From NCBI GenBank assembly GCA_003344405.1, contig NOWV01000109.1:62001-126000 (forward strand): DNA of 64,000 nucleotides, in the 5' to 3' direction. Origin of the DNA: Trichoplax sp. H2. Its lineage: Eukaryota. Shown here piece by piece: positions 1-58,492 of the stretch (within the stretch, counting starts at the first letter, position 1; every line of letters starts with the position of its first letter). The position numbers were made by a program, and so were the translations under genes. The notes under the pieces were generated by a model that searched no databases, was not told the origin of the DNA, and was given only the letters and a program-made list of their open reading frames with translations.

Positions 1-947
1 ATGAAATTACAGGATTTCTTTCAATTAGTGATTATGTTAAACCAATGAACTTACACATATTTTGCAAATATTAATTATGACTGTCAAAACGCAATTGATA
101 ACATATCCTACACTGTTGAAGAGAAACAGATGAATAAAATTAAATTAAAATTTTATAGATAGGAAATTGACGATGTAAGGAAGATTGAATGTAAGTAAGC
201 AAATTTAAGGAATTAAATCGATTTAGGATAAAGCCGATGAATTTGCATTTTCAAGAGATGAAATGTATGAGAATTAAAATAATGATAAAGTGCAGGATAT
301 GAATAAATCGACGATAAAAGCTATCAACATCTGCAGATTTTAGATTTCAAGATCACACTAATTATTGAAAAGACCAATCATGGGCTGTCGTAAGAAATAA
401 AATATTTATGCTAACTACTTAAATCCAAAATAATGAAAATAAGCCAAATAAACGATGAAGGAAATTCAAAATATGTTTACCAATATCAGCAAGATAAATC
501 ACGTGTCTATGACTATGATGCTTCGGAAAGTGCAAGATACTGGTACCCAAAACGGGCACAGGAATGTTATCAACATCCCAATTTTTATACAATATTGGAT
601 TATATGTTTACATACAATAAATTAATTTTGAAATTATAGAATGTATAAAATCATTTGATTACTTATTCAGGATAAAATATTTGTTTGTTTAGATGAATAA
701 TTGCATGAACACATATTAATTTACAAAATAGTAAAATAGTTTGATCAGATTAGTATTAAAAATATTTGATATAAATTCAAATGTAATTTTATTATAATCT
801 AGTGATAATACACAAGAAATGGTTATTTTGTTTTCTATATTTTACAATTCTTAATCTGCTACCGTATATATTTTTGTTTTAGGGTTTCCACTTTAACTTT
901 TATGAGAACACTACGATGAAGTAATGAGTTATAAGATAGTGTTTAAG

Positions 948-28744: not shown

Positions 28745-31700
28745 CTAAATTCGTTCGCCTTCAACAGCGAAAGGCAAAGCGACTTCAACAGTGGATTGCG
28801 GTCTTTCACTTTGCGACTGTAGTGTATAATCAAAATAACGTGGACAATCAAATGCTGTTGCTGTTCGATTTCCTTCTTGTTTCATAGGATCCTTTGTTTT
28901 AGCACAAGATGATAACCTGTAATATATAATAACTTGCACTTAATCAAGCTAAATCGACAGCAAAATAACGTCCAATATATACACAAATTTTTATTTCCAT
29001 AGCATATTAACCTAATTTCGTATAAGGGAGGATACGAATAGCCATTAAAAGTCTTTCTTCGTCTCACTTCTTTAGTAATCTCTCGCTTTCTTTTACCCTC
29101 TCTGCAGAGATATACACAACTAGCGATGCAAAGGCCAAGAACTACCAAATTCAATATAAAATAAGATTCAATCAGAAATTACAGTTATAAAATAGCCTTA
29201 TTAATAAAGAGCGCATGCAATGCCATAGAAGTATGATTACGTACTTATTCCAACGACTAAACTTGTAATTATAGCCAACCAATGCCATACCAATAAGCCG
29301 AAAAGACTCCTATTCAAGAAGGGTACCTTTCCAGTCGAATTCGCTGTGAAAGAAAAAGTTGTTGCTGCTGATGGGAATGGGGTTCCTCGCTTAATAATGT
29401 TAGAATCAAGAAGTCGTATAAATTCCGTTGGCATAATCTATAGTTGTAAAGGATAGAGCGATATAACGTTAAAGATCAAACTGAAGACGCTATGATAGCT
29501 TTAAGGAATAAATAGTATAACCTTTTGATTTTGGATGGTTATAGTGAGCTCCCCTTTTGCTAATCGAGTTTTAATGGATTCTTCAGCTAGTAATGTCTGA
29601 GAGTATGAGCCTACTAAATTGAACTAAATAGAAGATACCGTATTATTAGGAGCAAGTTGCATTTCGCTGGTTTATACTACGTATTGGTATAATTCATTAA
29701 TAAGTATATCAGTATTACTAGCTCGATTATGTAAAAAAATGATGTAGCAATGAACCATAGCATAATATTTTAAAGTTAACTAGCATGGAATGAAATTGAA
29801 ACAGCATATCGAGTAATATAAACTGGAGAATAATATGTAGTAATTTTGTACCACTATCGTGGAGGTATCGGTACTATTGGGCTCGATATAGACGGGACCT
29901 AAAAGAGATGGCTAATGAAAGCCACAATAAATAAAAGAAATTATAGTTTTCTATCCAAACATCCATTAACTCTAAGAATATTGTCTAGGGTTCGAAATAA
30001 AGCTTACGTTAATACCAAGCGATGACTTAAACTGATCAAGCGCATTTTCAGCTTCAGTAGCTGGTAAAGCGTTAAAGTTATAAGGATATATAACCTTAAA
30101 GGGCAAAAAAAGACCTTAGTAATTACACTGATCAAGGAAAATGCGATGTCGATAGCTTGTGGCATTATGTTCTACAAGCTAAAGATATCACAAAACAATA
30201 ATCAATTTCGAACTATAACCAAATTTCAAAGTTAACAGTTACATGAAAAGGAACTTCTATGGTGGATCCGTCATCTACAAGAAAATTGTTAGAAGAAAAG
30301 CTTATTAAATTAATAGCATATTTATCATATAAAAACTACTGGTTGCGATACGTTACATAATAACTTAATTCTACAACGAAATATAGAATTTCTTCATCAT
30401 TTATTTATACATAAAGTAAATCCTTTTCTATTCGTACGTCTGTACTGGCAGATATTTTATTATTATTTAGCAATAAAGGGATTCGATCTAAAATTTGGTG
30501 AGTCTTTTATTCGAATTAATATTTAAATTATTGAACTCTAATTATAATTACTAGACATTCGGCGTTTATGAATAATAAATTTAACTTACCGGCGCATTCT
30601 CCAATATAAGGATGTGGCGACTGTCCTAATGGGCATGAAGTTAAACAGTCGCCGGACGAAGCAACAAGATTATTGTGGCAGGAAGTACAGTAAGTAGCAA
30701 CATTGAGGCAAGTGCTACATTGTGCAGCACAAACTATAATACGTAGGGTAGAATGCATAATAAGATCAAGCTAAGTAGGGTTATCATTATTTTAGGGCAG
30801 TGCTTTATTTGCTTCGTACCTTTACACGTAGAGTCAGATTGTGAGGCATAGTAGCCTTTTGGGCAGTCCACAACACAACTAGGAGGAGAGCTATGATAAT
30901 AGTATCCACTTTGGCATTTCTGGCAATTGTTGTTAGCATCACAGCTTTCACAATTGAATAAGCAATCCGCTTTAGCCTTTTCCAATCTCTCTCCTCGATA
31001 GTTTATTCCCTAAGAATTAAAAAAGAGTAATTATGATTAGTATGATAAGGGTTATAGCCTTGTATCAAGTTTGAGGATTATTATTAGGGTAATAGATGAT
31101 GAACAATAAGAAGTAAAGATGATAATAAGATTGATTCTGTCCTGAATCAGTGATAGATTTCATATCAATTTTAGATTTGCATCTATGATTGTAATTTAAT
31201 CATAACGGTGAATGAAAGTATATTACCGATACTTTTATCATTTCTGTTTAGTATCATGGAGGGTTATGAGGGATTAATCGGATTGAATTGGATTTTATAT
31301 TGCCTTATGTATATGAATATCACATTATTAGAGTGGCGTAGGCTGCAGCCGTACTATTGCACCTTTCTGGCCAGTCAACTCTTCCCTACATGATATCAAT
31401 AATTAAACAACCTACTATGGCTGAGTTAGCTGACTATGCAACAGGAATTAGCAACACACTTCTGGCTGTACTAGATTGGGTTATTATTAATCATACTAGT
31501 AAATTTCCCGTTCAACTGAACGGATACATATATCTAGACAAAGCTATACATTACAAGAAAATTCACAGCTAGATAATTTCTTACTACTGTTTATGTTGCT
31601 TTCTATAAATTGTGTAGCTATGGCAAAAATTACAAGGTCTAAGGTTGATCGAAGTAGAAATATATAGGACGTAGTAAAAGTTGTTAGGCTAATTAGATGC

Positions 31701-41779: not shown

Positions 41780-44700
41780 CTATTCATATTCTACATCATT
41801 CATTAGAAGTTCTGCATTTCTACTTGGAGGGCGTGGAGGGCGTTTACTACAGAAACACCATACCATTAACATACTTATACCTAAAATTGATACGGTAAAT
41901 TATTAGAATTCCCAACGAATTAGTTCACGTCGTTTTTATGCTAAGGAAGGCTTAGTGACTGGGTAAGTCTCTAACACCGTAATTATTTCCTAGATTTTAA
42001 ACAGAGCTAATTATATTCTACCTATTTACCTATCGCAATAGCACTACCAATACCGATTAATATCCATTGCAAAAGAGTCAAGCTAAGCAAGTTGTTATTT
42101 TGAGGTTTTGTAGTAGCTGGGCTTACAGAAGGAATAGTTGTAGCGGGCTTTGATGTTGCAAAAATGGGAGCGGACGGAGAAGAAATAATATCAATTTTTT
42201 CGATTACGGTAATGTTTAGGGCTGATATCTACAATAGGGAAGAAATAAAATTATAATAAATAAAAGTAACTTGTAATTCCTAAGTAAGTTGTCGCATCAT
42301 GGACATGTATAAATAAGTATGTTTTTAAGCTAGTGTATTTCAATATGAATATGTGTAGTGGATTTTTTCATGGCTATGCTTACGTGATTTCCTGGGAGTG
42401 AAAGATCTACTTTGTGATGGTTTAATTTCAATAAAATATTTGTGTAGGAAGTCATCACTTGTGTATAAGAGCCTTGCAAAGAAAACTATTCAATAATACA
42501 ATGGCAAATGTCACCATTAATAGATATTAAATTTTATATAAATCTGACAGTAATCCAACTTTTTACTTTAAAATGATACCATACACCGTATATGAATAGG
42601 AATATCATTAATAATTATTATGCTAGTCTAAATTAAATAATGATTCAGCAGTCTAGTACCAAACCATGCTTAATCATACCTCCATAACGAAGTAATCAGT
42701 ATCAGTATCATTTCCAACAAATAACAATTCAATGGTGCTAGCGACCAATGCCTATTACGATAGATGTATTTGTATCAAATTGCTTTCAGTATTATTTAGG
42801 ATACAACGATACATCGCTATAGAATGTAGAATTTCTGTGTATGCGAGTATAACAACAAACTATTTTATGAAACAGCTGGCAAATGCTAAATATTCATTCT
42901 AAAGGTAATACAAGTTTGCCAAATTATAAAAACCATCCCTTACTTGGCTGCTAATTAAAGTTTTAAATTTCTTCTTGAGTGTACTTGTATCAGACTGTTC
43001 TACTTGATTTTCGCTAAAATATAAAATCTAAAAAAGGAATTGCAATAAGATAATATGTTGAAAACTGCAGCGAGGAGATTCTGATTTATTGAATAGATTT
43101 TTGTACCTTGTATGATCTCTTAATGATTACACCGTTATCTAGAAAATTTTTTGATGTAAAACAGTCACAAAAAATCAACAAATATTAGTTATTCGTATGT
43201 ATTGATAACAAATAAAACTAATTCGTTATTACAGAAGAATAGGTTTGGTTATAAGACGTTAATTATGAAAGCGAAATTTGTTAGCGTCTTAACATTAGTT
43301 TGCACCTGTGCATTCGTCGCTATGAGGTGGTATTGAACGCCCCAAAGGACACTGATTTACACAAGTTCCATCGTTTGCCACTAATGGACCGGTGCAGGCT
43401 GTACAATAATTTGCTGTATTGCGGCAAGAAGTACATCGTGTTCTATTACAATCTAATTGCGCAAAGAATGTTCAAGAAGAGGATTGATGTGATATCATGC
43501 GTGTTTTCAGTTGCTTTCTCTGCCGTGATAATTTTGATTGGCGTATAAATATATAATATTATTACCTTGGCAGTGATATGAATTTAGCTTGCTGAATGCG
43601 CCCATTGGACATTGTTGATAACATTTTTGATTGTACTTGTAAAAATTGGGTAAACATTCTTGACATTTACTACTATTGTCTGAACACTTTATACAATAGC
43701 TCGAACAGACTAAAAAAGTAATTGCAAAGATAATTTTTAAGATTCTATCAGTTCCTTTCTGTAATTAAGACAAAAAAATTCATAATGACAACAAGGATAG
43801 AAAAAAAAATGGTAGACTAGGTGGATAGCAATCCTTCCTGATATGTACAGTATTTTCAAGAATAAGTAACTATAATTATAAAGTAAGTTACATGAGTATG
43901 TAAGATATTAATTGAGATTAACATGTGATCGTCTGTAACTCTTAATATAGCTGTGTAAGATTTTACTCTGTGAGACAGCGTAGCTTACATCATAGCCCTA
44001 AAGTTAGCTAGTGAAGTTCGCGTATCGTGATGGCATGTTGCATTATTAGTGAAAGCATATAAACACAGGTTAATGGATAAAAAGGTCAATTTTTACAAGC
44101 TACTCTCGGAGTAACTATCATAAGATAATAACACAGATACACAACACTTACTTAGCGGAGTATAGTATTGTGGAAGATAACTCCTATATCTCATGCAAGC
44201 TTGTTCGGGTGATGGACATATAACGTAACCATTGCAACCGGAAAATGTAACTTTCTCTCCAGAACGTGAGCATGTTCTTTCTACATCTGAAAATCAGAGA
44301 TTCTGTTAACTAATATATCAGGTATAAGGACATAATAGTCATGTATTGTGTAGCTACTTACTATTTACGATAACCTTTAAAGTTGCTTTTCCGCTAATCG
44401 AATTGATCTGACATTGACTTTTGAAACAATAAGGCCTGTTATTATAAGAAATGTGCAAGGAATCTTGAATTGTCCCAATGAAACATTGTGATGATATTCC
44501 ATAGTAAGGGCCACAGTTTTTAGCTATAGAGATATTTTCAAACTTTTTAGTTTTACATCATTACTGTATTGTAATATAAGCTATTTTTTATCTATTGGTA
44601 GCTACAAATACGGATACATTCGTGAAATAGGCTTAAAGATAAATAGATATTAATATGCATAATTTAAAATACAAAATTCACCGCTAGTTTTAGGCTGCCA

Positions 44701-47517: not shown

Positions 47518-48410
47518 GGTGGATTCTTCAACAAGTTTCACCAGCTTTAATCGCCGCCAATAGTGTAACTTAATATATAGAGTATGTTGCCTTATCTATA
47601 ATAACAATTGCAGTTAACAAGTATTACTAAAAGATCAGACTGTATGATAGCTCGGAACTTCTGCACTTATGAACTTAAATTGGAGAAGAATATTGTCGAC
47701 ATAGATAAATTAAGCGTTAATATACAATTCGATTATTTTTATCTTTCGAAAGTACCTCATACGACGGAAAAAATTTTAAGTATGATCAACCGTGACGCCC
47801 GCTGTGAATTAACCCTGTTCTCAATAGCATGCCAATTGGAAAGATTATTTAACTTAAGCAATTGACAGTTTAGCAATACGAAAGAAACCTAATTCTGTCT
47901 AATAAAGCACTACATGCAATTCTTTTTTTTAATATTTCTAACGTAATTAATTTGTCCAGAGAATTGTGAGGTTATTTGCGACTATACTAATTAACCTATC
48001 GATCTTTCTCCTTTTTATCAAGAAACGAATAATATACTGAGAAACTGCAGTATCAACGTCTAGTTCATTTACATGATAATACTTTCTTTCTACTGTACGT
48101 ACGTTACAGTGAAGTAGCTGCTTAGATTAAGCTGCGGTGTTTTACTTTACAGTACATCTATCACGTTTAGCTACGCCTTTACTTTGCATGATGTCTATTA
48201 AATAGAAAGATTGAAAAGGCGGAGCATATTGCAGTCTATTAAGCTCACAATGTACTACGTAATGCAGTCAAGAATTTTTTTTTTCAAGTAGAAATCTCAT
48301 TCCCTAGATTGCCTAAGATGATATCTTGCTTGGTTCTATCTCGAGGAAGTTCACTAATTTAATAATTATAGGAGTATCATTACCTTCAAAATGTACTCCA
48401 TATGTGTTCA

Positions 48411-48780
48411 ATCCCCCTCCTATACAGCTTACTTTATTTTTTATTTCTGGACAGAAGATACTACAATAGTTTAAATTGGAACGAAATCAATCTATTCCAT
48501 TAGTTGAGAAGTGAACTAGAAATCTATCACTAATCAAGTCTTAATATCAATATATACCGCACAAAGTACAGAACTATACCATGAGCGTGCCATATATGTT
48601 CTACAGTATCCCCCTCCTATACAACATTTATTTTTTATTTCTTGACCGAAGATACTACAATAGTTTAAATTGGAACGAAATCCATCTATTCCATTAGTTG
48701 AGAAGTGAACTAGAAATCTATCACTAATCAAGTCTTAATATCAATATATACCGCACAAAGTACAGGACTATACCATGAGC
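48411..48780. repeat. Near-identical tandem duplication (~195-bp period, 2 copies) upstream of gene D
   Basis: atccccctcctatac...gaagatactacaatagtttaaattggaacgaaatc...aaagtacag..ctataccatgagc occurs at 48411-48586 and 48608-48780. Confidence 0.93.
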
Positions 48781-50830
48781 ATCATTAGCTAAGATCATGA
48801 CCTCCTCATGATCATCAGGTGGTTTTTAGTGGCTTTCTACCATATTTCTAAAGTACAGTACAGTACGTGGCAGGCTGGTAAAGGAGGAAGGGACTGTAAT
48901 ATACTGTAGACCGCCAGCTCTTGACTACAGTACTGGACTGTACTCAACGCAGCAACAACTGCTCGGTAGTCTGTAGTGACTGTGACACAGTAAGTGGTAG
49001 TACTGTACTGTTCTTCTTCGCATTCTCGGTCTGTAGAATTTTGAAATTTTTTAGTTCAATCTGTGCTTCAATTACTGTTAACCTTTAAAGGGAGAAATAC
49101 GCATTAAAATGCAATGTATAACTTGTTTTAATGAGTCCTGAATCATTCAATTTGGGTGCCTAGTGTCTGTGGATGGATAGGGTTTAGTGAACAACTGGAT
49201 GTCTCTGTTGAGGGGCTCGATCACAATTATATTGAGGCTGTATTCTTCACGGAATGAGAATAGCTAGTCTTGAGGAAATCTAGATTATGTTGAGGCCCCA
49301 GGTAAATAAGATAGTAGATTAGTGGTGTTAGATACACCCTATTAGGTGTTATGGGCATCACAGACAATGAGTGGATAATGCATTAGATGTTACCTGTAGG
49401 AGCCATATTGAACGTTAAGTAGAGTAAGGAATAGCATAGGGGTAAGTTAAGTAGGATTTACTTAAATTGATTGAAACGGGGATTTGATAAACATGTTTGT
49501 CAATAATCCTTTCTAGGAATCAATTTATCTGAAGGGGAGGAAAGTCGATAGCTTTGAGCTAGCTTTGTGTCTAGTTGCGCTCTCTTAAGTTCTACTATTG
49601 TAATATTCAACAAGAAGATTTCAAGTAATAAACTATTTTTAACCGCAACGTTGAGGGCTTACTTCGTTGAACTTTTATCAAATCTTGTGAAATTGATATA
49701 ATAAATTTATAATTATACTATTAGTATGCCTATTGTACTTTTCAAGGATAAGCTATAACCAGTGCATTTTGGCTTTTATTGAGTCCTACAAAATCGATAT
49801 AGTAAAGCTACAGTTGAAATACTGATTGTGTTTTCTAAAATAAACTATGATGGTATATAATAAACCACTGAAACGTAAATGGAATGCCGCTGTATCTGGA
49901 ATAAAACATAGGAGATATTAAGCTATATTGACATAATATGCTATGTAATGATTTTAATTTAGGATTGTTGCAATATAGGTACAGGATGCTATCGCAAAGC
50001 GTGGGATCTTCTCCAAAAATACTAGTTATGATAACGTATAAACATTCAAAGTTACGCTAAATGATTTTTCATAAATTATGAGATAGCTTTATTATTGCTT
50101 TTTTACTGATAAAGCCACATGCCATCGCTGGTGTTTATATTTAGTTATTTAGCTATAAGCTGGTAATTTATTTAAAAAAACTCCAGCCCTATTTTTATAA
50201 GGCTATATTCAATCTTATTTCATACGTTACTAATTATGGAGGAGATCTTTCCATAAATTTAAAGTAAATAATATGTATCCTAACATTAGATCATGTGATT
50301 TACGATTCATAATAAGTCAATTACGTAATTTATAAATTAAACTTTAATGTGATTCGTTTAAGTTTTAGCTTGATTGATATTAAATTCTACAACAGCATCA
50401 AGTTTCATATAAAACACCACGTATGAGATATGATATTTGCTGCTTCTGTTTAAATCTCACAAATATGCATGAAGCATGACGAGACTTACACTGACCTAAA
50501 ATATACCGATTGACGATATTATTAAAGGATTAGCTGTAGTTAATATTTGATTATCAATACTCCAGCTCTTTATTTCAAGATAAAGACTATCAAATTTTAA
50601 GCCTTTGCAATAGTGCGACAATGTTCAACAGGCTATTTTACTTACAAAACTTGCAACGCCAACGCAAAATGGAAACTTTCAATTATTGTTAGTAGTTTAA
50701 GAATAAACGCAATTAGGGTTTACATTCAATTTTGACAGTAAAATACGGAATACTGTTTATCTATAAATAAATTTTGCCATTTATTTTGATCGATTAATTC
50801 CAGCAGATAATCGGCATAGAGTTTATTAAA

Positions 50831-51714
50831 CTACAAACTTTTTTGAATTTTATCATGACGCTGCCATATAGATAACAAAATTTTTAGAAATGGAACTTCC
50901 AACATACCTATAAATATCGCATACATTATCGGTGAAATAACGCAATTAAGAAACAAACCAAGTAATGATAAGTAATAAGCTGTATCAGATATACTAGCTA
51001 GAAATATGCCCAAGAAAACGACTATATAGTAAGGCGAGGAATACAAGCAAGTGGTACAGAAAACAGCAACATGCGCCTTTGTTATGATTATTTGTAATTG
51101 ATCGTAGGTACCATGCTTGTAGCGATGGTTAATTATGATATAAATTATGCTGGAAGCTATGCAACAAATACAGAAATTAAACAAGAAAGCAAATGAAAGC
51201 CCAGAATCAAGACGCCAGTCATGTATACAATCTTTGATAGCAAAATCGTAGACATAAATACTAAGACCGATTACCGGAGTGAAAGGAATTACGGTAGAAA
51301 TAGACCAAATAATTATTAGCAATAAAATGGCTACTCGATTAGAATAAATAGAATCTGAAGATATATTTTGTCTTAAAGAATAAAATCGAGTCAAAGATAT
51401 AATCGTTAAATTGATGGGTTGGCACGAAATTACAATACCTGTAATAAAAGCATGGATATTGCACCACACTGGACCGAATATCCATTTTTGATGAATAAGA
51501 ACAGAAATTTGAAATGGAATAATCAATGCAGCGATTAAGCAATTTCCAATGATAAAATTGATCATAAGAATATTGGTAATAGTTTTGATTTGATACATCA
51601 GAACGAATAATACCATCAGGTTAGCCATAATTGACGCTGTAACGGTAGCTATTAAAAAGATAATCTGCGTATGCCTTGCTATTATTGAAGTTGGATTCCC
51701 TGATTCGAATTGCA
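50831..51714 (-). CDS. Single-exon class-A (rhodopsin-family) GPCR 7TM coding segment (terminal exon of gene E)
   Basis: 294-aa ORF with seven hydrophobic segments. TM1 ...SIMANLMV (N1.50); ECL1 WIFGPVWC (WxFG + C3.25); TM3 end ISLTRFY (DRY-like); TM4 IIIWSIS (W4.50); ECL2 Cys; TM6 CLYSSPY; TM7 NCVISPIMYA (NPxxY-like). Confidence 0.9.
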
Positions 51715-54700
51715 CTGGATTTTGATGGGAAAATAGATTCGAATGTGCGTGTAGGAATTTTTTAATTAGTAGTTAGTTAATTGATATTAGTAGCATAAAT
51801 TTGTCACACTAACATGCATCTGACGGTATCATTCCAGTTTTGATTCGGCCAACACAGGCATGTCTTAGAGAGGGACAGATCAGATATCCATAGCAGCCAT
51901 AACCAGAAATACGAATATGTTGCTTTTCTTTCAGACACCAAAGTACCGAACCTACAAGTTAGGCATCAATAATAATTAAGATGTTTTCTCTAAAATATAG
52001 TAGTATTACCTCTAAACGATTAATCATATATTATTAGAGCAATGCATATTAAATAGCTCAAACAAAACCGATCTAATAACCTAACATATTTTCAAGATTA
52101 ATTTTAAATATTCTAAATCTATATTGGATAATAACGGTATAGCAAAAGCATTACCTGAATAGTTTAATGAAATAGCTAATCTATTGGTTACATTATCTTT
52201 AATGCAGTTGTAGTAGAAACAGCCACCCATTGGAGCCGTTTGAAATGCAGCGATAGGACTTAATGTATTGATGAAGCACTGAGAATTTGGGCTATAGGAC
52301 TGGCCACATGATCCTAAATAGTAATCAAGGGAACAAATCATGCATGACATGCTGCTGAAAACATATGCACACTAGCAGTGACTGTGTTGAAAATTGTTAA
52401 AAAAAATAATCTAGATGATTTCAGTAATTTTGTTATTTTTAAGTTGTAGAGGAAGCAATTTATGAATAGCAGCAGAATTTTATAAATTTTATTACGTTGC
52501 AGATAAAACAAAAAAGTTATATAAAGTTTATATTCATTTTGTTGCTTACCCTTGGATGATTTCGAATATTGGCACGATTTTACTGATTTATAAATATGAC
52601 AGCCGTCCAGATACGCATTTTTCGTACAGATTCCCTATTATTGATTAAGTATGATGCATCATAAAATGTTGTTATTAGAGTAATATATTTGCTACCGTTG
52701 CGAGAAAAGTAATACCAGCTAACCGTAGACTTCATATCAGGACTGCAACCATATTTTAACTTGTTAGGTTGACATGAGTAAGGATAGGTAGATTGAGTTG
52801 CACTGCAAGATGATGCTATAAATTGACACCCACGATCTAGCACACATAATAGTAAAGATACTTTATATCTATATTTTTAAGACAGAATTTTAATGAAAAG
52901 GGATTTTAGATGAAGCTTGTATAATTTCTATAAATTAAAAACTTGGTCAATCGATAATTCTTACCTTTTCCGTAGAGAAACTGATCAGCCGCACTATAGT
53001 TAGCGAAATAAAAACCCGAGTCTTCCATTGCAGCTAGAGTTATCGTACTTATAGCAACAGCGCTAGTGTTACGATATAAGGATAACATTTTATTTTATAA
53101 AATAGTATTAGACCATATGAATATTTTACTAACCTGCCCACTTCACTAGGTGGAGCTGCAGTCATAATATCTCCATGTAAAATTCTCATTTCCCAGTGTG
53201 ATCTGCAAAAAATTCGAAAGTACGTAGAACTCTATGTCAGCTAGTAGACTAACAATGTTAATACTTTTATTAATGCTGATGTTATTTAGCTACTAGTAAA
53301 CAGTTTAATTGTAATTTTTGATTTGTTTTTCTATTTCAATAACTGTGGGTCGCTTTACCCTTGATGCATTCCATCATTTTCAAGTTCCACTCCATCCAGT
53401 GCAGAGCAGTTAAAGTGCACGCGTGCCATCTTAACAACCTATTTTATTTTTTGTGTTACTGCTATTCAAAATTTCATCACACTATCTCAAAATAGGTTAA
53501 ACTTACAAAATACAAGAGGTTAATTAGCGTATAGTAATTATGTACAGATTATTCATTGCGATAATGTGATCTTTTATGAAATATGACGGAGGTAAGATCT
53601 ACGATTACAATTGATCTTATTATTGAGTTCGATACTGCCATCGGTTTCTGATCGAAAGAAAGTAATAGTCCTAGTTTAAATAAAATCTTAAAATCATGGG
53701 TTTATATCTTACTCTTGGAGAAATTAACTTTTGGATTTTTTCTCCTCTTCTATAGAAAGTTCTGATAGCATTAAATGATTTGCCATTGATATCTTTAAAG
53801 CTGTGCCAAAATTTAATAGAAATTGGATAGTTATTCTAATTTATCCGATTGCTGTGTTGGTTCAGATCCTAATAAATCTAACTACTATATGATACTACCG
53901 TCTCATATATCTATCAGAAAAGCCCAAGGCATGAAGTAATTCATGTACAGCCACATTAAGCATAGAAAATTTATTTACAGTTTCAAATGTCTAGAATTTA
54001 ATGTTATAAGTTAAAAGTTAAAAAGAAAGATCTTAGATTAATATGAATTATCGTAATAAACGAATGCAATAATAATGCCGATAGCGTAATTAGCTCTGTC
54101 ATCAGGTTTTTGGAGATAAGATTTGCCATCAATATCTATTCTAAGTTATAGTTTTCAAGTCAATTTTTTCATACCTTATGACAAAAGTTTACGTATCCTG
54201 CTAGAGGCCTACCATCATCACTTTCTACGCATGTAGAGGCAAATGCAGCTGCATATTTGCAAGCCTCTAAAAATAGTAACTTTACCGTTATTGGCATGAA
54301 AGTAGTATATAGCAGTTTTTCAATGTTGATGCTATGGCTAAATACCGGTATTACAAGCAGACCTAAAACTGTAACGCTAACAGTACAGTATAAAATAATG
54401 ATACAAAAAAATCAAGACCCTGCCTACCTACTTCTTTGGCGAAAATATACCATATATAGTCAGTATTGGCTAAACCATGATGATGAGTCCCCATGGTAAA
54501 GCAAGTAGTAATATCATCAGAATCGGGGCATATTTCAGTTAGGTCTGTATGATCAGCTGGGATAGTAAATTTTGCAAAAGTACCACATGGCAGTGGATCA
54601 ATCATAGCGCATTTGCCTTTATTTTTTCCTATTTGATGGCGAACTAAGCATGATTGCAATTTTAAGTACCGAAGCGGCAATGTGCTAGATAATATTGAGC

Positions 54701-55100
54701 TAATTTTATGAATAGCTTGAGGTATGATCCATTGCCGTAAAGCTTGATTGTATGCAGGTGGTAAATGAATATGCTCTTCGATATAATATGGATAAATACG
54801 TAGCGGCAAAAAAGTCTTGCTTTTCGCTTTATGGTTGACCTAATAAACGAAATATGTTGTAGACAAAGATATTCACTTATTAACTCATTCTACATGGACG
54901 TGCGTAAGCTAGCTTATGATAGCAATCAAATTTGAATATACTACCTGTCCATTTGGGTGTAAGTATTCGTCATAACTTGCGGCATAAGTAGCAGGAGCGG
55001 CAACCATTAATACGGCTAAGTAACAAATAGCAATAATGATAGTGGGAAGGCGGAAAGATGGTCGATCACAAACCAAGATGGATAATAAATAAACGCTCAT
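50831..55100 (-). CDS. Gene E: M8 (leishmanolysin-like) metalloprotease fused in frame to a class-A rhodopsin-like 7TM GPCR; 13 exons, ~821 aa predicted
   Basis: Exons 55100-54945, 54839-54428, 54266-54175, 53990-53899 (VHELLHALGFS; HExxH 53931-53945), 53800-53713, 53438-53359, 53202-53134 (SHWEMRILHGDIMTAA), 53062-52965 (ITLAAMEDSGFY), 52836-52724, 52634-52550, 52313-52155, 51951-51814, 51714-50831. All are GT-AG with consistent phases and sum to 2466 nt (divisible by 3). The protease part is near-certain; the join to the GPCR exon is inferred from splice signals. Confidence 0.8.
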
Positions 55101-56419
55101 ATCTAGCAGTAGTTAGCCTATGTAGCAATTTAAGTGGAGTAGTCTAAGTTTAGAAGTGAACATGTAGCATGTCAATGAGTTACAATTGATAATAAAGTAA
55201 AATATTAATAGGAGAGTGCTGAATTCCTTTTTGATGTTGATAACGTGTATACCGATCAAGATTATTATTTATAACTTGGTTCATTAATTGAATTTTAACA
55301 CTTTTGGTGTCAATAACATCCTGCACTCATACTTTCCATAGCAGTTTGTTAGCCAGTTCTAGGAGTAATCAAACTTAGCAACTCTATCTTTTTGTGATTC
55401 ATTGTGATAAAGTACAAGACGAAGTATACCTTACCAAATTGCAGTATAATATAATTTAAGTAGTAGTGTATTGGTTCAATTTTCCCCTTCCGGCTAGATA
55501 TACGTATTGAGGTATTTGAGGTTAATTTGATGCTATTGTGAACTTTACATAATTTGCACAAATATAAAACGCTAGTATCTAAGCTGTAATTATCACTACA
55601 GGGCGCGATAATACTATATCTCATCTGTAATTCCATCTATAAACTATTGATTGGTTATTATTATCGAAATTATAATTTACCCGAATGATGAGAAACGCTA
55701 ACTTGTTATGCCACAGTGCCAGAGTGTGAGTAAAGAAGTGGAAAATAACATGAGTTGTTGTCATGTTTCGCATCACTTGGATAATGTTAACTTTGTCTTA
55801 TAGCATTTTTTCCATTCATTAGCGTCGATTTATTCTTACGGAATGATTCCATAATTATCGATCACGAAATTGGTGCTACGTTATATAAAGTGGAGATACT
55901 TCTATAAGCATGCTGTTTGTTGGAGTAGTATAATTCACTCATGCACAATGCAACAAATGCTTTTCTCACTCCTAGTACTGATGACAGTGAGTTATACTAT
56001 TTTGATTCATCAATGCTAACCGCTCATTGGAAAATTGCAATCGACTTTGCAATACCAAGTTTAAGTTATAATACGCAGCCGTGTCAAATGCTGTACTGTA
56101 GTATACGATATACTGTACTGTAAATTGTCTGTAATGTTATTATCATTGAATTTGGGGCTGTAAAAGATGGCGCAGATATTCAAATAGTAATTTTATAGCA
56201 CATTAGCAACAGCCTAGAAACGAGTATTGATTTCAACTTGCTAGCACCTGCTGTATACTGTACAATTGTACATTATGCGGTCGAGCGAGGGACTTGTTGT
56301 ACGAATAGCCACTGTCCCTAGTCTGTACAGTATGTGCTTTACAGTAGGATGCACAGAGTCATTGACGGTGCTAAATTTGTGCGTTATCATTGAGTGCAAT
56401 ATGTACTGTACACAGTCAG

Positions 56420-56840: not shown

Positions 56841-57149
56841 ATACTTTAGCTACGAAATAAATGTCACTAAAACTAACATACAAATACACTAGTCGATTAA
56901 TACCGATATCTAGCAATGAATTTCGTAAGTACTCTTATTAAAATATCTGCTACGAAAATAATCACATTGCTGCTGTACAGAGTAGAGTAATTTTGACTGA
57001 ATAGACGAATTGATGCATTACATACAGACATATTGACATACAGACATCCCCATGCGATTTTGAAAGCAAAGTGTACAGATCTACGGACAGATCTCGTACA
57101 GCTTGAAGGCGTTTTTAGTCGATAAGATATGCTCATTGTACAATGTACA

Positions 57150-57236
57150 GTACTGTACTGTACAGTGGCATGGACATTTGAAAGTACTGTACTGTACAGT
57201 ACAGTGGCATGGACATTTGAAAGTACTGTACTGTAC
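57150..57236. repeat. Short tandem repeat (34-39 bp, ~2.3 copies)
   Basis: gtactgtactgtacagt(acagt)ggcatggacatttgaaa is repeated directly. Confidence 0.85.
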
Positions 57237-57630
57237 TTCTAGAGTGAGACACTCGAGAGCTGTTTCAGATAAGAGAACTTTATCACTTGAAGTCCGTCAT
57301 TGGTACAAGGTACTGTAGATTACTCGATGAGTGGGCGATCATGGCACAGTTCAGTACCGGACACTATTATCATACTGTACTGTACACTAATACAGTACTA
57401 CTAGTCAACAGTTTTGTAGTTGACGTCATCACTGTTGTTGACTTGTTGTTACCTATGATCATAAAAGTTGCACGTGACGATACCGTTCCGTACCGTACAG
57501 TACTGTACTCAGTGTGTAGTGTGTGCACTGTGCAGTAAGCCAGTAACTACGTACGGTATAGTAGTCGAAGTTGTAGCGAATGAGTCTGCGTGGTAACAGT
57601 TCGTAGAGAGAATATTTCCTAGCACTATCG

Positions 57631-58492
57631 TGTCATGGCATGGCATACTACTGCGCAGTACAGTAACTGTCCACGATTTGCAGTCGAGTGACGTCGATCA
57701 GGGGCACTTGTTCTACCCAGGGTGGTAAACTACAGTACTGTCGTTTCATGGCATGGCATACTACTGCGCAGTACAGTAACTGTCAACGATTTGCGGTCGA
57801 GTGACGTCAATCAGGGGCACTTGTTCTACCCAGGGTGGTAAACTACTGTACTGTCGTTTCATGGCATGGCATACTACTGCGCAGTACAGTAACTGTCCAC
57901 GATTTGCAGTCGAGTGACGTTGATCAGGGGCACTTGTTCTACCCAGGGTGGTAAACTACAGTACTGTGGTGTCATAGCATGGCATACTACTGCGCAGTAC
58001 AGTAACTGTCCACGATTTGCAGTCGAGTGACGTCGATCAAGGGCACTTGTTCTACCCAGGGTGGTAAACTACAGTACTGTGGTGTCATGGCATGGCATAC
58101 TACTGCGCAGTACAGTAACTGTCCACGATTTGCAGTCGAGTGACGTCGATCAGGGGCACTTGTTCTACCAGGGTGGTAAACTACAGTACTGTGGTGTCAT
58201 GGTATGGCATACTGTACTGTCAACGATTTGCAGTAGAATGACGTCGATCAGGGGCACTTGTTCTACCAGGGTGGTAAACTATAGTACTGTGGTGTCATGG
58301 CATGGCATACTACTGCGCAGTACAGTAACTGTCCACGATTTGCGGTAGAGTGACGTCGATCAGGGGCACTTGTTCTACCAGGGTGGTAAACTACTGTACA
58401 CTGTACACTGTACAGTACTGTCGTGTCATGGCATGGCATACTACTGCGCAGTACAGTAACTGTCCACGATTTACAGTCGAGTGACGTCGATC
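57631..58492. repeat. Tandem minisatellite array, ~113-bp unit, ~7.6 copies, GC-richer than background
   Basis: Unit tgtcatggcatggcatactactgcgcagtacagtaactgtccacgatttgcagtcgagtgacgtcgatcaggggcacttgttctacccagggtggtaaactacagtactgt.. starts at 57631, 57744, 57857, 57970, 58083, 58195, 58293 and 58424. One copy has an internal deletion and one has a ctgtaca expansion. Confidence 0.97.

What the first reader, a model, noticed from the sequence alone, without database searches (positions are those of the whole stretch)
50831..55100. Apparent leishmanolysin (M8) metalloprotease-GPCR fusion: a receptor with its own zinc protease as ectodomain
Seen: the last protease exon of gene E ends ...MIPSDA-T|GTTAGT at 51814. 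This is the same phase-1 donor position where paralogs A, B and D splice on furin-like repeats. A 99-nt intron (51813-51715) follows, with CTAAC/CTAAT branch-like motifs and no AG between the donor and the final CAG. The next exon (TG CAA TTC...) reads in frame into a complete 7TM class-A GPCR. That GPCR ORF has no usable start of its own: the track start is the G of the acceptor AG, an in-frame TAA lies upstream in the intron, and the first ATG falls inside TM1. Gene E has no furin/stalk/single-TM exons between protease and GPCR. The catalytic motifs (HELLH, SHWE, DIMT Met-turn) are intact. Established: M8 proteases are normally GPI-anchored, single-TM or soluble, and class-A GPCRs normally do not carry catalytic ectodomains. 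Inference: a ~821-aa signal peptide-protease-7TM chimera, which could generate its own tethered ligand, sense substrates, or use the 7TM as an anchor. I do not know of a described example, but could not search.
Basis: partly seen in the sequence, partly recalled or inferred. Interest (0 to 1): 0.95.

Follow-up and report, generated by a model that had tools for sequence, protein, structure and literature searches.

The report
Leishmanolysin protease spliced onto a GPCR
In the placozoan Trichoplax sp. H2, a complete zinc-protease gene appears to splice directly onto a seven-helix receptor exon that has no start codon of its own; this would make a receptor carrying its own protease, but no RNA evidence could be obtained.

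Summary
On the minus strand, 13 exons (55100..50831) give one open frame. A 12-exon M8 (leishmanolysin) protease ends at 51814 with a phase-1 donor T|GTTAGT. A 99-nt intron (51813..51715) follows. An 884-nt exon then reads in frame into a complete rhodopsin-family 7TM.

The window is Trichoplax sp. H2. The deposited 821-aa model (P0002, PF01457+PF00001) uses the same junction, so the fusion is already a public gene model. I found no paper that discusses it.

Support:
- The donor is ancestral. Paralogs A, B and D have a phase-1 GT donor 13-14 codons after the same last cysteine, leading to furin-like exons.
- The GPCR exon has no usable start.
- The acceptor is the first AG after a 92-nt AG-free stretch.
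- Five of 6 exonic variants are synonymous.
- A 74%-identical GPCR ortholog exists.

Against:
- There is no transcript evidence; the four runs laid were DNA.
- The splice sites score in the lower quarter.
- An in-frame ATG lies 6 codons before the donor, and a TAG 2 codons after it, so separate products are possible.
- No second M8-7TM protein was found.

A protease-GPCR precedent exists in oomycetes (AP-GPCR). Real fusion: about 0.6.

The parts
54945..55100 (-). Exon 1 of gene E: ATG at 55100-55098 and a hydrophobic N-terminus (residues 14-42), read as a signal peptide or signal anchor
   Evidence: exon borders; hydropathy window 14-42. Cleavage is inferred, not predicted by a tool.
54428..54839 (-). 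Exon 2: N-terminal part of the M8 protease. The propeptide region carries Ala41 where 93% of 52 homologs have Cys.
   Evidence: The deposited model uses the donor at 54428/54427; my own model used 54432/54431.
52155..54266 (-). Exons 3-11 of the protease: 54266-54175, 53990-53899 (HELLH), 53800-53713, 53438-53359, 53202-53134 (SHWE, Met-turn), 53062-52965, 52836-52724, 52634-52550, 52313-52155
   Evidence: all 12 introns are GT..AG and reproduce P0002 exactly; Peptidase_M8 E 1.3e-39; H236 E237 H240 H309 M320 present.
51814..51951 (-). Exon 12 (138 nt, phase 1-1): the conserved end of the M8 C-terminal domain (C487, C507, P508, C514) plus a 13-residue linker. It ends at the ancestral phase-1 donor T|GTTAGT.
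   Evidence: The homologous exons are A 4246-4112, B 16439-16308 and D 44286-44152.
51830..51832 (-). In-frame ATG (Met521 of P0002), 6 codons before the donor: a possible start of a GPCR-only product
   Evidence: sequence. Its use as a start is a hypothesis.
51715..51813 (-). Intron 12, 99 nt, GTTAGT...CAG, GC 0.29. Read-through stops at the TAG at 51811-51809. No AG for 92 nt before the acceptor.
50831..51714 (-). Exon 13: conserved juxtamembrane segment ESGNPTSIIAR, complete rhodopsin-family 7TM, short tail, TAG stop at 50833-50831
   Evidence: 7tm_1; 340 solved class-A sequences matched, best GPR161 at 6e-15; ortholog P0001, 74% identity.
50822..50827 (-). AATAAA, 3 nt after the stop codon: a likely polyadenylation signal
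   Evidence: Sequence. The function is inferred.

Best explanation
Gene E is a single gene made by exon shuffling. An old paralog in a tandem array of membrane-anchored leishmanolysin-like (M8) proteases kept its phase-1 splice donor at the end of the protease domain. In the sister genes this donor leads to furin-like repeats, a stalk and one TM helix. In E it leads instead to a single-exon rhodopsin-family GPCR that has no start codon.

The predicted product has these parts:
- a signal peptide or anchor (about residues 1-42);
- an extracellular zinc protease (about 60-514) with an intact HExxH, third His and Met-turn, but without the propeptide Cys;
- a linker of about 30 residues that includes the conserved ESGNPTSIIAR;
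- a 7TM (about 545-811).

The topology is coherent: the N-terminus of a GPCR is outside the cell, where the protease must be. At minimum, the 7TM replaces the single-TM anchor. Coupling of proteolysis or substrate binding to the receptor state is possible but is pure inference.

Shown here: the frame, the splice signals, the homology of the donor, and the integrity and constraint of both halves. Inferred: that the splice happens, that the full-length protein is made, and all function.
For: (a) The 13-exon frame is open, and all 12 introns are GT..AG, 71-274 nt long. The deposited evidence-based MAKER model P0002 has the same junction (the method was read in passages of PMC6057997).

(b) The donor is ancestral. 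All 4 paralogs in the window have a phase 1-1 exon ending 13 codons (B, E) or 14 codons (A, D) after the same last Cys, with a GT donor.

(c) The receptor exon cannot stand alone in this genome. The in-frame TAA lies 19 codons upstream. The intron has no GT after its only ATG. The first in-frame ATG is in TM1, and it is not conserved in the ortholog (IMANLM against IIANFL).

(d) Only 99 nt separate the two coding parts. There are no furin or TM exons between them, or in the 3.3 kb downstream.

(e) The acceptor is the first AG after a 92-nt AG-free zone, 4th longest of 45.

(f) Both halves look functional. The 313-codon ORF is the longest in the window. P0002 keeps 49 of 54 conserved M8 columns. 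The AF2 ectodomain has pLDDT above 90, and its top fold match is leishmanolysin 1LML, E 1.4e-27. Five of 6 exonic variants in other DNA runs are synonymous third-position changes, including 3 of 3 in the receptor exon.

(g) The ortholog P0001 has Val at -3 and Leu at -4 from the conserved Glu. This fits an AG|T acceptor at the same place, but it is inference made without its DNA.
Against: No transcript evidence of any kind was obtained. No RNA holder was listed. The 4 runs laid cover introns and intergenic DNA, so they are DNA, and they show no joint at any of the 12 introns.

The splice sites are in the weak quarter. The donor ranks 40 of 45 and the acceptor 34 of 45. 7.5% of 187 decoy GTs and 26% of 182 decoy AGs score as high.

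Read-through stops after 2 codons (TAG), and the intron holds an ATTAAA, so a soluble protease is possible. The in-frame ATG 6 codons before the donor allows a GPCR-only product.

The only relative of the receptor, P0001, is recorded as a 297-aa protein that begins with M, 6 residues before the conserved segment. It may stand alone there.

No second M8+7TM protein was found:
- P0002 was the only hit at E <= 0.001 among the proteins of 514-2000 aa.
- It was 1 of 58 M8 hits.
- None was among the best 150 of 5479 hits in 1.84 billion representatives.
- 0 of 202 other held proteins match the receptor part.

MAKER models in this array are not all exact: P0003 skips a conserved exon.

By my reading, and with the motif positions recalled, the receptor departs from class-A microswitch motifs: Asn for D2.50, TRF for DRY, SPxxY for NPxxY.
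Confidence: 0.6

Rival explanations
1. One locus gives two separate products. A soluble protease ends at the TAG at 51811-51809 when intron 12 is retained or the transcript is polyadenylated there. A stand-alone GPCR is transcribed from an internal promoter in intron 11 or exon 12 and starts at Met521 (ATG 51832-51830), with intron 12 still spliced. The full-length fusion would be rare or absent.
For: The in-frame ATG lies 6 codons before the donor, with G at -3. The TAG comes 2 codons after the donor; it exists only in E, because E's donor is GTTAGT where A, B and D have GTAAGT. ATTAAA is present in the intron. P0001 is recorded as a 297-aa protein starting with M. Both splice sites score weakly.
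Against: The Met is specific to E; A, B and D have none at that place. P0001's M is at another position (-6 against -9) and may be a non-ATG start chosen by a gene caller inside an intron. A promoter would have to sit within a 203-nt intron or a 138-nt coding exon. Any protease pre-mRNA that runs on would still meet the first AG at 51715 in frame. None of this was tested with RNA.
Confidence: 0.22
2. The fusion is an annotation artefact. The gene predictor merged a truncated protease with a neighbouring receptor exon. The real first exon of that receptor lies elsewhere and was not recognised, or the exon is an untranslated relic.
For: MAKER with ab initio predictors can merge close neighbours (the method was read in passages of PMC6057997; that such predictors merge close neighbours is recalled, not taken from the paper). 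The neighbouring model P0003 is demonstrably inexact. No other fused protein is known.
Against: The receptor ORF is intact and constrained: 313 codons, 74% identity to the ortholog without gaps inside the 7TM, and 3 of 3 variants synonymous. There is no room for a promoter, UTRs and a start in 99 nt. No candidate mini-exon exists in the intron, which has no GT after its ATG. The nearest upstream donor in the right phase is the ancestral protease donor.
Confidence: 0.13
3. A misassembly joins two unrelated loci between 51700 and 51820.
For: No listed contig of the four DNA runs bridges the donor by 31 nt or more.
Against: An independent contig (X5, 51605-51769) crosses the acceptor with 2 differences. 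Another (X5, 51807-52007) abuts the donor. X4 has depth in both bins, 51574-51807 and 51808-52041. The intron's composition and the donor homology are continuous with the gene.
Confidence: 0.03

Closest known systems
Oomycete AP-GPCR 'bigram' (Phytophthora infestans PiAP5)
   Same: The order of parts is the same: signal peptide, extracellular protease domain, C-terminal 7TM GPCR domain, all in one polypeptide (passages in PMC6033456, and PMC8035641, which cites Kay et al. 2011; that paper was not read).
   Different: PiAP5 has an aspartic protease (A1), not a zinc M8 enzyme, and it comes from a stramenopile, not an animal. PMC8035641 describes it as found only in oomycetes, so the placozoan case would be an independent invention. 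Whether PiAP5's 7TM is rhodopsin-family was not checked here.
Sister genes in the same tandem array (A about 3.6-7.9 kb, B = P0060 14712-26149, D = P0003 41783-47517): M8 protease + furin-like Cys-rich repeats + stalk + single TM
   Same: They share the protease fold, the exon structure and the phase-1 donor after the last Cys. The protease is extracellular and membrane-anchored in all of them.
   Different: E has a 7TM exon in place of the furin-like, stalk and TM exons. It is only 34% identical to B and D. It lacks the propeptide Cys. Its donor is GTTAGT.
Protease-activated receptors (PAR1-4), recalled from general knowledge
   Same: They are class-A receptors whose N-terminus is the target of a protease. 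A conserved juxtamembrane peptide could act as a tethered ligand.
   Different: In PARs the protease is a separate soluble serine protease. No sequence relation was seen: the PDB search ranks GPR161, alpha-2 adrenergic and NPY-Y2 receptors first, and no PAR is among the 60 rows shown. Cleavage here is untested.
Adhesion GPCRs (GAIN-domain autoproteolysis)
   Same: They have a large ectodomain on a 7TM and self-cleavage close to TM1 (recalled).
   Different: They belong to the 7tm_2 family with a GAIN/GPS domain. Here only PF01457 and PF00001 are found. PMC6033456 states that adhesion-GPCR ectodomains are not predicted to be catalytic.
Leishmanolysin GP63 (PDB 1LML) / invadolysin family, Peptidase M8
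   Same: The ectodomain matches in Pfam, catalytic motifs, Cys framework and fold.
   Different: Known members are GPI-anchored, single-TM or soluble (recalled).

Membership tests
Peptidase M8 (leishmanolysin) | Pfam PF01457 above the gathering score | tested here: met
   P0002 residues 160-405, E 1.3e-39, 136.8 bits against a cut-off of 21.
Peptidase M8 (leishmanolysin) | Zinc site HExxH plus a distal third His, and a Met-turn | tested here: met
   H236 E237 H240, S308 H309 W310 and M320 are all present. These columns are 94-100% conserved in 52 homologs.
Peptidase M8 (leishmanolysin) | Three-domain fold of GP63 with its conserved cysteine framework | tested here: met
   In the AF2 model the 10-residue block means for residues about 60-520 are mostly above 90 and none is below 71. 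The top Foldseek hit is 1LML, E 1.4e-27, TM 0.62 by target. All 15 conserved Cys from C137 to C514 are kept.
Peptidase M8 (leishmanolysin) | Propeptide Cys (CxHD), recalled as a cysteine-switch latency motif | tested here: not met
   Ala41 (ASYD) stands where 93% of 52 homologs have Cys. This bears on regulation, not on family membership.
Peptidase M8 (leishmanolysin) | Proteolytic activity | not testable with these tools
   Needs expression and an assay.
Rhodopsin-family GPCR (7tm_1) | Pfam PF00001 above the gathering score, over the full model | tested here: met
   Model positions 2-260 of 260. 69.5 bits for the exon alone and 65.6 bits within P0002, against a cut-off of 30.5.
Rhodopsin-family GPCR (7tm_1) | Sequence relation to solved class-A receptors | tested here: met
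   340 distinct PDB sequences at E <= 0.001; the best is GPR161 at 6e-15.
Rhodopsin-family GPCR (7tm_1) | Seven-helix fold | tested here: inconclusive
   Hydropathy windows span residues 543-811. The AF2 model of this part has pLDDT 40-60, because only one homolog was in the alignment, and it gave no GPCR fold match.
Rhodopsin-family GPCR (7tm_1) | Class-A microswitch motifs (D2.50, D/ERY, NPxxY; positions recalled) | tested here: inconclusive
   By eye: GN for D2.50, TRF (VRL in the ortholog) for DRY, and SPIMY for NPxxY. The Arg, Pro and Tyr are kept.
Rhodopsin-family GPCR (7tm_1) | G-protein or arrestin coupling | not testable with these tools
   Needs a cell assay.
Protease-GPCR fusion ('bigram') as one polypeptide | Both domains on one mRNA or protein | not testable with these tools
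   The frame and the deposited model agree, but no RNA run was available.
Oomycete AP-GPCR (PiAP5) | Aspartic protease domain | tested here: not met
   Only PF01457 and PF00001 were found. It is analogous to this family, not a member.
Adhesion GPCR | GAIN/GPS domain plus 7tm_2 | tested here: not met
   Neither was reported at E <= 0.01.

The most novel reading that the evidence does not exclude
A self-contained protease-coupled receptor in an animal without nerves. The tethered M8 protease has no cysteine-switch latency. It either cleaves the conserved juxtamembrane segment (ESGNPTSIIAR, 11 of 11 residues identical in a 74%-identical ortholog) to expose a tethered agonist, or it reports substrate occupancy to the 7TM. 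Extracellular proteolysis, for example of prey or biofilm proteins during external digestion, would then be transduced directly into the cell. Competition between splicing of intron 12 and read-through to the TAG would switch the gene between a secreted protease and a signalling, anchored one.
Probability: 0.1. Interest if true: 0.9.

Novelty: new variant of a known kind. Interest (0 to 1): 0.62.

Why it matters
Class-A GPCRs are not known to carry a catalytic ectodomain. Proteases act on them from outside (PARs), or ADAMs and MMPs trim them.

If the fusion mRNA is real, this would be the first animal receptor with a built-in zinc protease. It would also be a second, independent invention of the protease-7TM architecture, after the oomycete AP-GPCR. 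It would be a clean example of phase-1 exon shuffling that swaps a single-TM anchor for a 7TM.

It would offer a simple system for asking whether proteolysis can be coupled in cis to 7TM signalling.

If it is not real, the finding flags a merged model in the public Trichoplax sp. H2 annotation. Either way, the neighbouring model has a skipped exon.

Tried and rejected
- RNA evidence: no RNA holder was listed for 50600-55300. I laid X4, X5, X6 and X8, hoping some were RNA. All four are short genomic contigs that cover introns and intergenic DNA. There were no joints at any of the 12 introns, so nothing was learned about splicing.
- The window's own genome is not held, so I could not look for other receptor paralogs or a distant first exon.
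- DNA of the ortholog: P0001's contig could not be fetched. A scan of metagenome contigs with the two-sequence alignment A2 matched 138 stretches by pattern, and none was confirmed.
- Earlier findings of the scan: nothing by place, by sequence or by words.
- ESM Atlas: it holds P0002 itself. There was no usable hit by features, and the structural neighbours are plain M8 proteases.
- The AF2 model of the 7TM half is too uncertain to use (pLDDT 40-60). I drew no conclusion on how the linker sits.
- PWM splice scoring from 44 local introns discriminates poorly; 26% of decoy AGs score as well. I use it only to say that the sites fall within the range of real ones.
- I looked for relics of furin-like or TM exons downstream of the receptor (47518-50830) and found none. 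The Cys-containing ORFs there belong to a 194-bp repeat.
- I considered a ciliate-type genetic code because the frame stays open past the TAG. I rejected it: the exons use CAA/CAG for Gln, the introns are full of TAA/TAG, and the ortholog ends at the same residue.
- Literature: 0 papers for Trichoplax + leishmanolysin and for leishmanolysin + 7tm_1. Two broader searches listed nothing on a metalloprotease-GPCR fusion among the rows shown.
- Supplements of PMC6057997, which may list evidence per gene model, are closed.
Full report
**What is there**

The window is AT-rich (GC 0.28-0.41 in 4-kb windows) eukaryotic DNA with short GT..AG introns. On the minus strand, I rebuilt a 13-exon frame from the ATG at 55100 to the TAG at 50833-50831. 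It gives 819 aa.

The public protein P0002 is 100% identical to the receptor exon. It is named 'Leishmanolysin-like peptidase [Trichoplax sp. H2]', is 821 aa long, carries PF01457+PF00001 and lies on a 254-kb contig. It differs from my model only by an alternative donor and acceptor at intron 2. A script that resolves exon borders against P0002 reproduces it exactly, with 12 GT..AG introns of 71-274 nt.

That annotation was made with MAKER, Augustus and GeneMark, using Trinity and TopHat evidence (passages of PMC6057997). Whether this particular model had RNA support cannot be seen, because the supplements are closed.

**The two halves**

- **Domains.** Pfam finds Peptidase_M8 (residues 160-405, E 1.3e-39) and 7tm_1 (residues 559-792, model positions 2-260 of 260, E 6.6e-18). 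Nothing else appears at E <= 0.01.
- **Protease.** Against 52 M8 homologs, P0002 keeps 49 of the 54 columns that are at least 85% conserved. These include H236, E237, H240, H309, M320 and all 15 cysteines from C137 to C514. An AF2 model gives pLDDT mostly above 90 for about residues 60-520. Its top Foldseek match is leishmanolysin 1LML, E 1.4e-27, the only match at E <= 0.001.
- **An odd feature.** Ala41 stands where 93% of the homologs have the propeptide Cys. I recall this Cys as the proposed cysteine switch.
- **Receptor.** The receptor exon matches 340 solved class-A sequences; the best is GPR161 at 6e-15. Its stop-to-stop ORF of 313 codons is the longest in the 64-kb window; the next is 203. 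The 7TM half of the AF2 model is unreliable (pLDDT 40-60) because only one homolog was available.

**The junction**

Exon 12 (51951-51814) is part of the protease: it holds the conserved C487, C507, P508 and C514. It ends 13 codons after C514 with T|GTTAGT, in phase 1.

All four paralogs of the tandem array have the homologous phase 1-1 exon: A 4246-4112, B 16439-16308, D 44286-44152 and E. Each has a GT donor 13 codons (B, E) or 14 codons (A, D) after that Cys, GTAAGT in A, B and D. Furin-like Cys-rich exons follow, then a stalk and one TM. The donor of E is therefore an inherited, functional splice site and not a chance GT.

In E the next 99 nt are intron-like (GC 0.29). They hold CTAAC and CTAAT, and no AG for 92 nt before the CAG at 51717-51715. 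That is the 4th longest AG-free zone of 45 introns, naive P 0.007. The exon that follows is in frame.

The receptor ORF has no start of its own. A TAA lies 19 codons upstream in the intron. The intron's only ATG is followed by no GT. The first in-frame ATG is in TM1 and is not conserved in the ortholog. No furin or TM exons lie between the two parts or in the 3.3 kb downstream. An AATAAA follows the stop by 3 nt.

**Constraint and relatives**

The four runs laid (X4, X5, X6, X8) turned out to be low-coverage genomic DNA. Their contigs cover introns and intergenic DNA, and none shows a joint at an intron. They give 11 single-base differences inside the gene. Of these, 5 are intronic and 6 exonic. 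Of the exonic ones, 5 are synonymous third-position changes (3 in the receptor exon, 1 in exon 12, 1 in exon 2) and 1 is V3A. The sample is small, but it fits purifying selection on both halves in the fusion frame.

The receptor has one close relative in 5.8 billion clustered proteins. This is P0001: 297 aa, 74% identical, on a 2.4-kb contig of an unnamed assembly. The juxtamembrane ESGNPTSIIAR is 11 of 11 identical. P0001 begins with M, six residues before that segment. Its residues at -4 and -3 (Leu, Val) fit an AG|T acceptor at the same place as in H2, but I could not see its DNA. Whether it stands alone or is spliced stays open.

No other protein combines the two domains:
- P0002 is the only hit at E <= 0.001 among proteins of 514-2000 aa.
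- It is the only one of 58 M8 hits with PF00001.
- None of the best 150 of 5479 hits among 1.84 billion representatives matches both halves.
- 0 of the 202 other proteins held match the receptor part at E <= 10.

**What speaks against a simple fusion**

- There is no transcript evidence.
- By a leave-one-out PWM from the local introns, the donor ranks 40 of 45 and the acceptor 34 of 45. 7.5% of 187 decoy GTs and 26% of 182 decoy AGs score as high.
- E's donor variant GTTAGT creates a TAG two codons into the intron, and the intron holds an ATTAAA. A soluble protease could therefore arise by intron retention.
- An in-frame ATG (51832-51830) six codons before the donor could start a receptor-only protein from an internal promoter.
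- The neighbouring deposited model P0003 skips its conserved exon-12 homolog. Models in this array are not all exact.

**Verdict on mechanism**

I put about 0.6 on a real fusion mRNA and protein: signal peptide, extracellular M8 protease, linker of about 30 residues, then 7TM. It would have arisen by exchange of phase-1 exons.

I put about 0.22 on separate products from the same locus, about 0.13 on a prediction artefact or an unrecognised first exon, and about 0.03 on misassembly. One independent contig crosses the acceptor; none of the listed ones crosses the donor by 31 nt.

Any coupling of proteolysis to signalling is inference. The conserved linker and the missing propeptide Cys are the only hints.

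**Comparison with what is known**

A protease-7TM polypeptide is described in oomycetes. AP-GPCR/PiAP5 consists of a signal peptide, an aspartic protease and a C-terminal GPCR domain, and is said to be oomycete-specific (passages of PMC6033456, and PMC8035641). The same review states that the ectodomains of adhesion GPCRs are not catalytic.

I found no paper that joins Trichoplax with leishmanolysin (0 papers) or leishmanolysin with 7tm_1 (0 papers). Two broader searches listed nothing relevant among the rows shown.

The architecture is thus a new variant: a metalloprotease on a rhodopsin-family receptor, in an animal. It is a variant of a rare but described kind. It is already present, unremarked, in a public annotation.

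Noticed in passing
window 44152-44286 (minus strand), inside the 652-nt 'intron' 44361-43710 of paralog D: The deposited model P0003 (731 aa) skips a well-conserved 135-nt phase 1-1 exon (...CNGYVICPSPEQAC...). This is the homolog of E's exon 12, with a good TTTTCAG acceptor and an A|GTAAGT donor. It is probably an annotation omission, or an alternatively skipped exon.
   Followed up: partly
window about 54973-54984 (residues 39-42 of P0002): Gene E has ASYD where the paralogs have C-x-H-x (CIHD in D, CSHH in B), and 93% of 52 M8 homologs have the propeptide Cys. I recall this motif as the proposed cysteine switch. E may not be latent.
   Followed up: partly
window 1-47600, minus strand: A tandem array of divergent M8 protease genes lies on one strand: A about 3.6-7.9 kb, B 14.7-26.1 kb, D 41.8-47.5 kb and E. 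They are only about 25-35% identical to each other. B has much longer introns, up to 1648 nt.
   Followed up: partly
window 30348-30722, minus strand: This stretch is 35% identical to the furin-like and stalk part of P0003 (residues 492-605, E 2e-10). No M8 hits lie nearby. It may be a separate Cys-rich-repeat gene or a relic.
   Followed up: no
window 57624-58492 and 57145-57236: The GC-richer block 56-60 kb (GC 0.405) holds satellite-like tandem repeats. One has a 113-bp unit x 5.2 copies at 95% match, with 98-, 210- and 226-bp superperiods. Another has a 39-bp unit x 2.4 copies.
   Followed up: no
window 48411-48780 and 49000-49700: A 194-bp direct repeat x 1.9 copies. Next to it, the DNA runs show 2-4 times the depth of the rest, many differences, a 9-nt insertion and loose ends. 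This is probably a dispersed repeat between genes D and E.
   Followed up: no
window 50729-50830, minus strand: The receptor frame stays open for 34 more codons beyond its TAG, up to a TGA. The ortholog P0001 ends at the same residue as H2, so this is most likely chance (about 0.07 by composition).
   Followed up: partly
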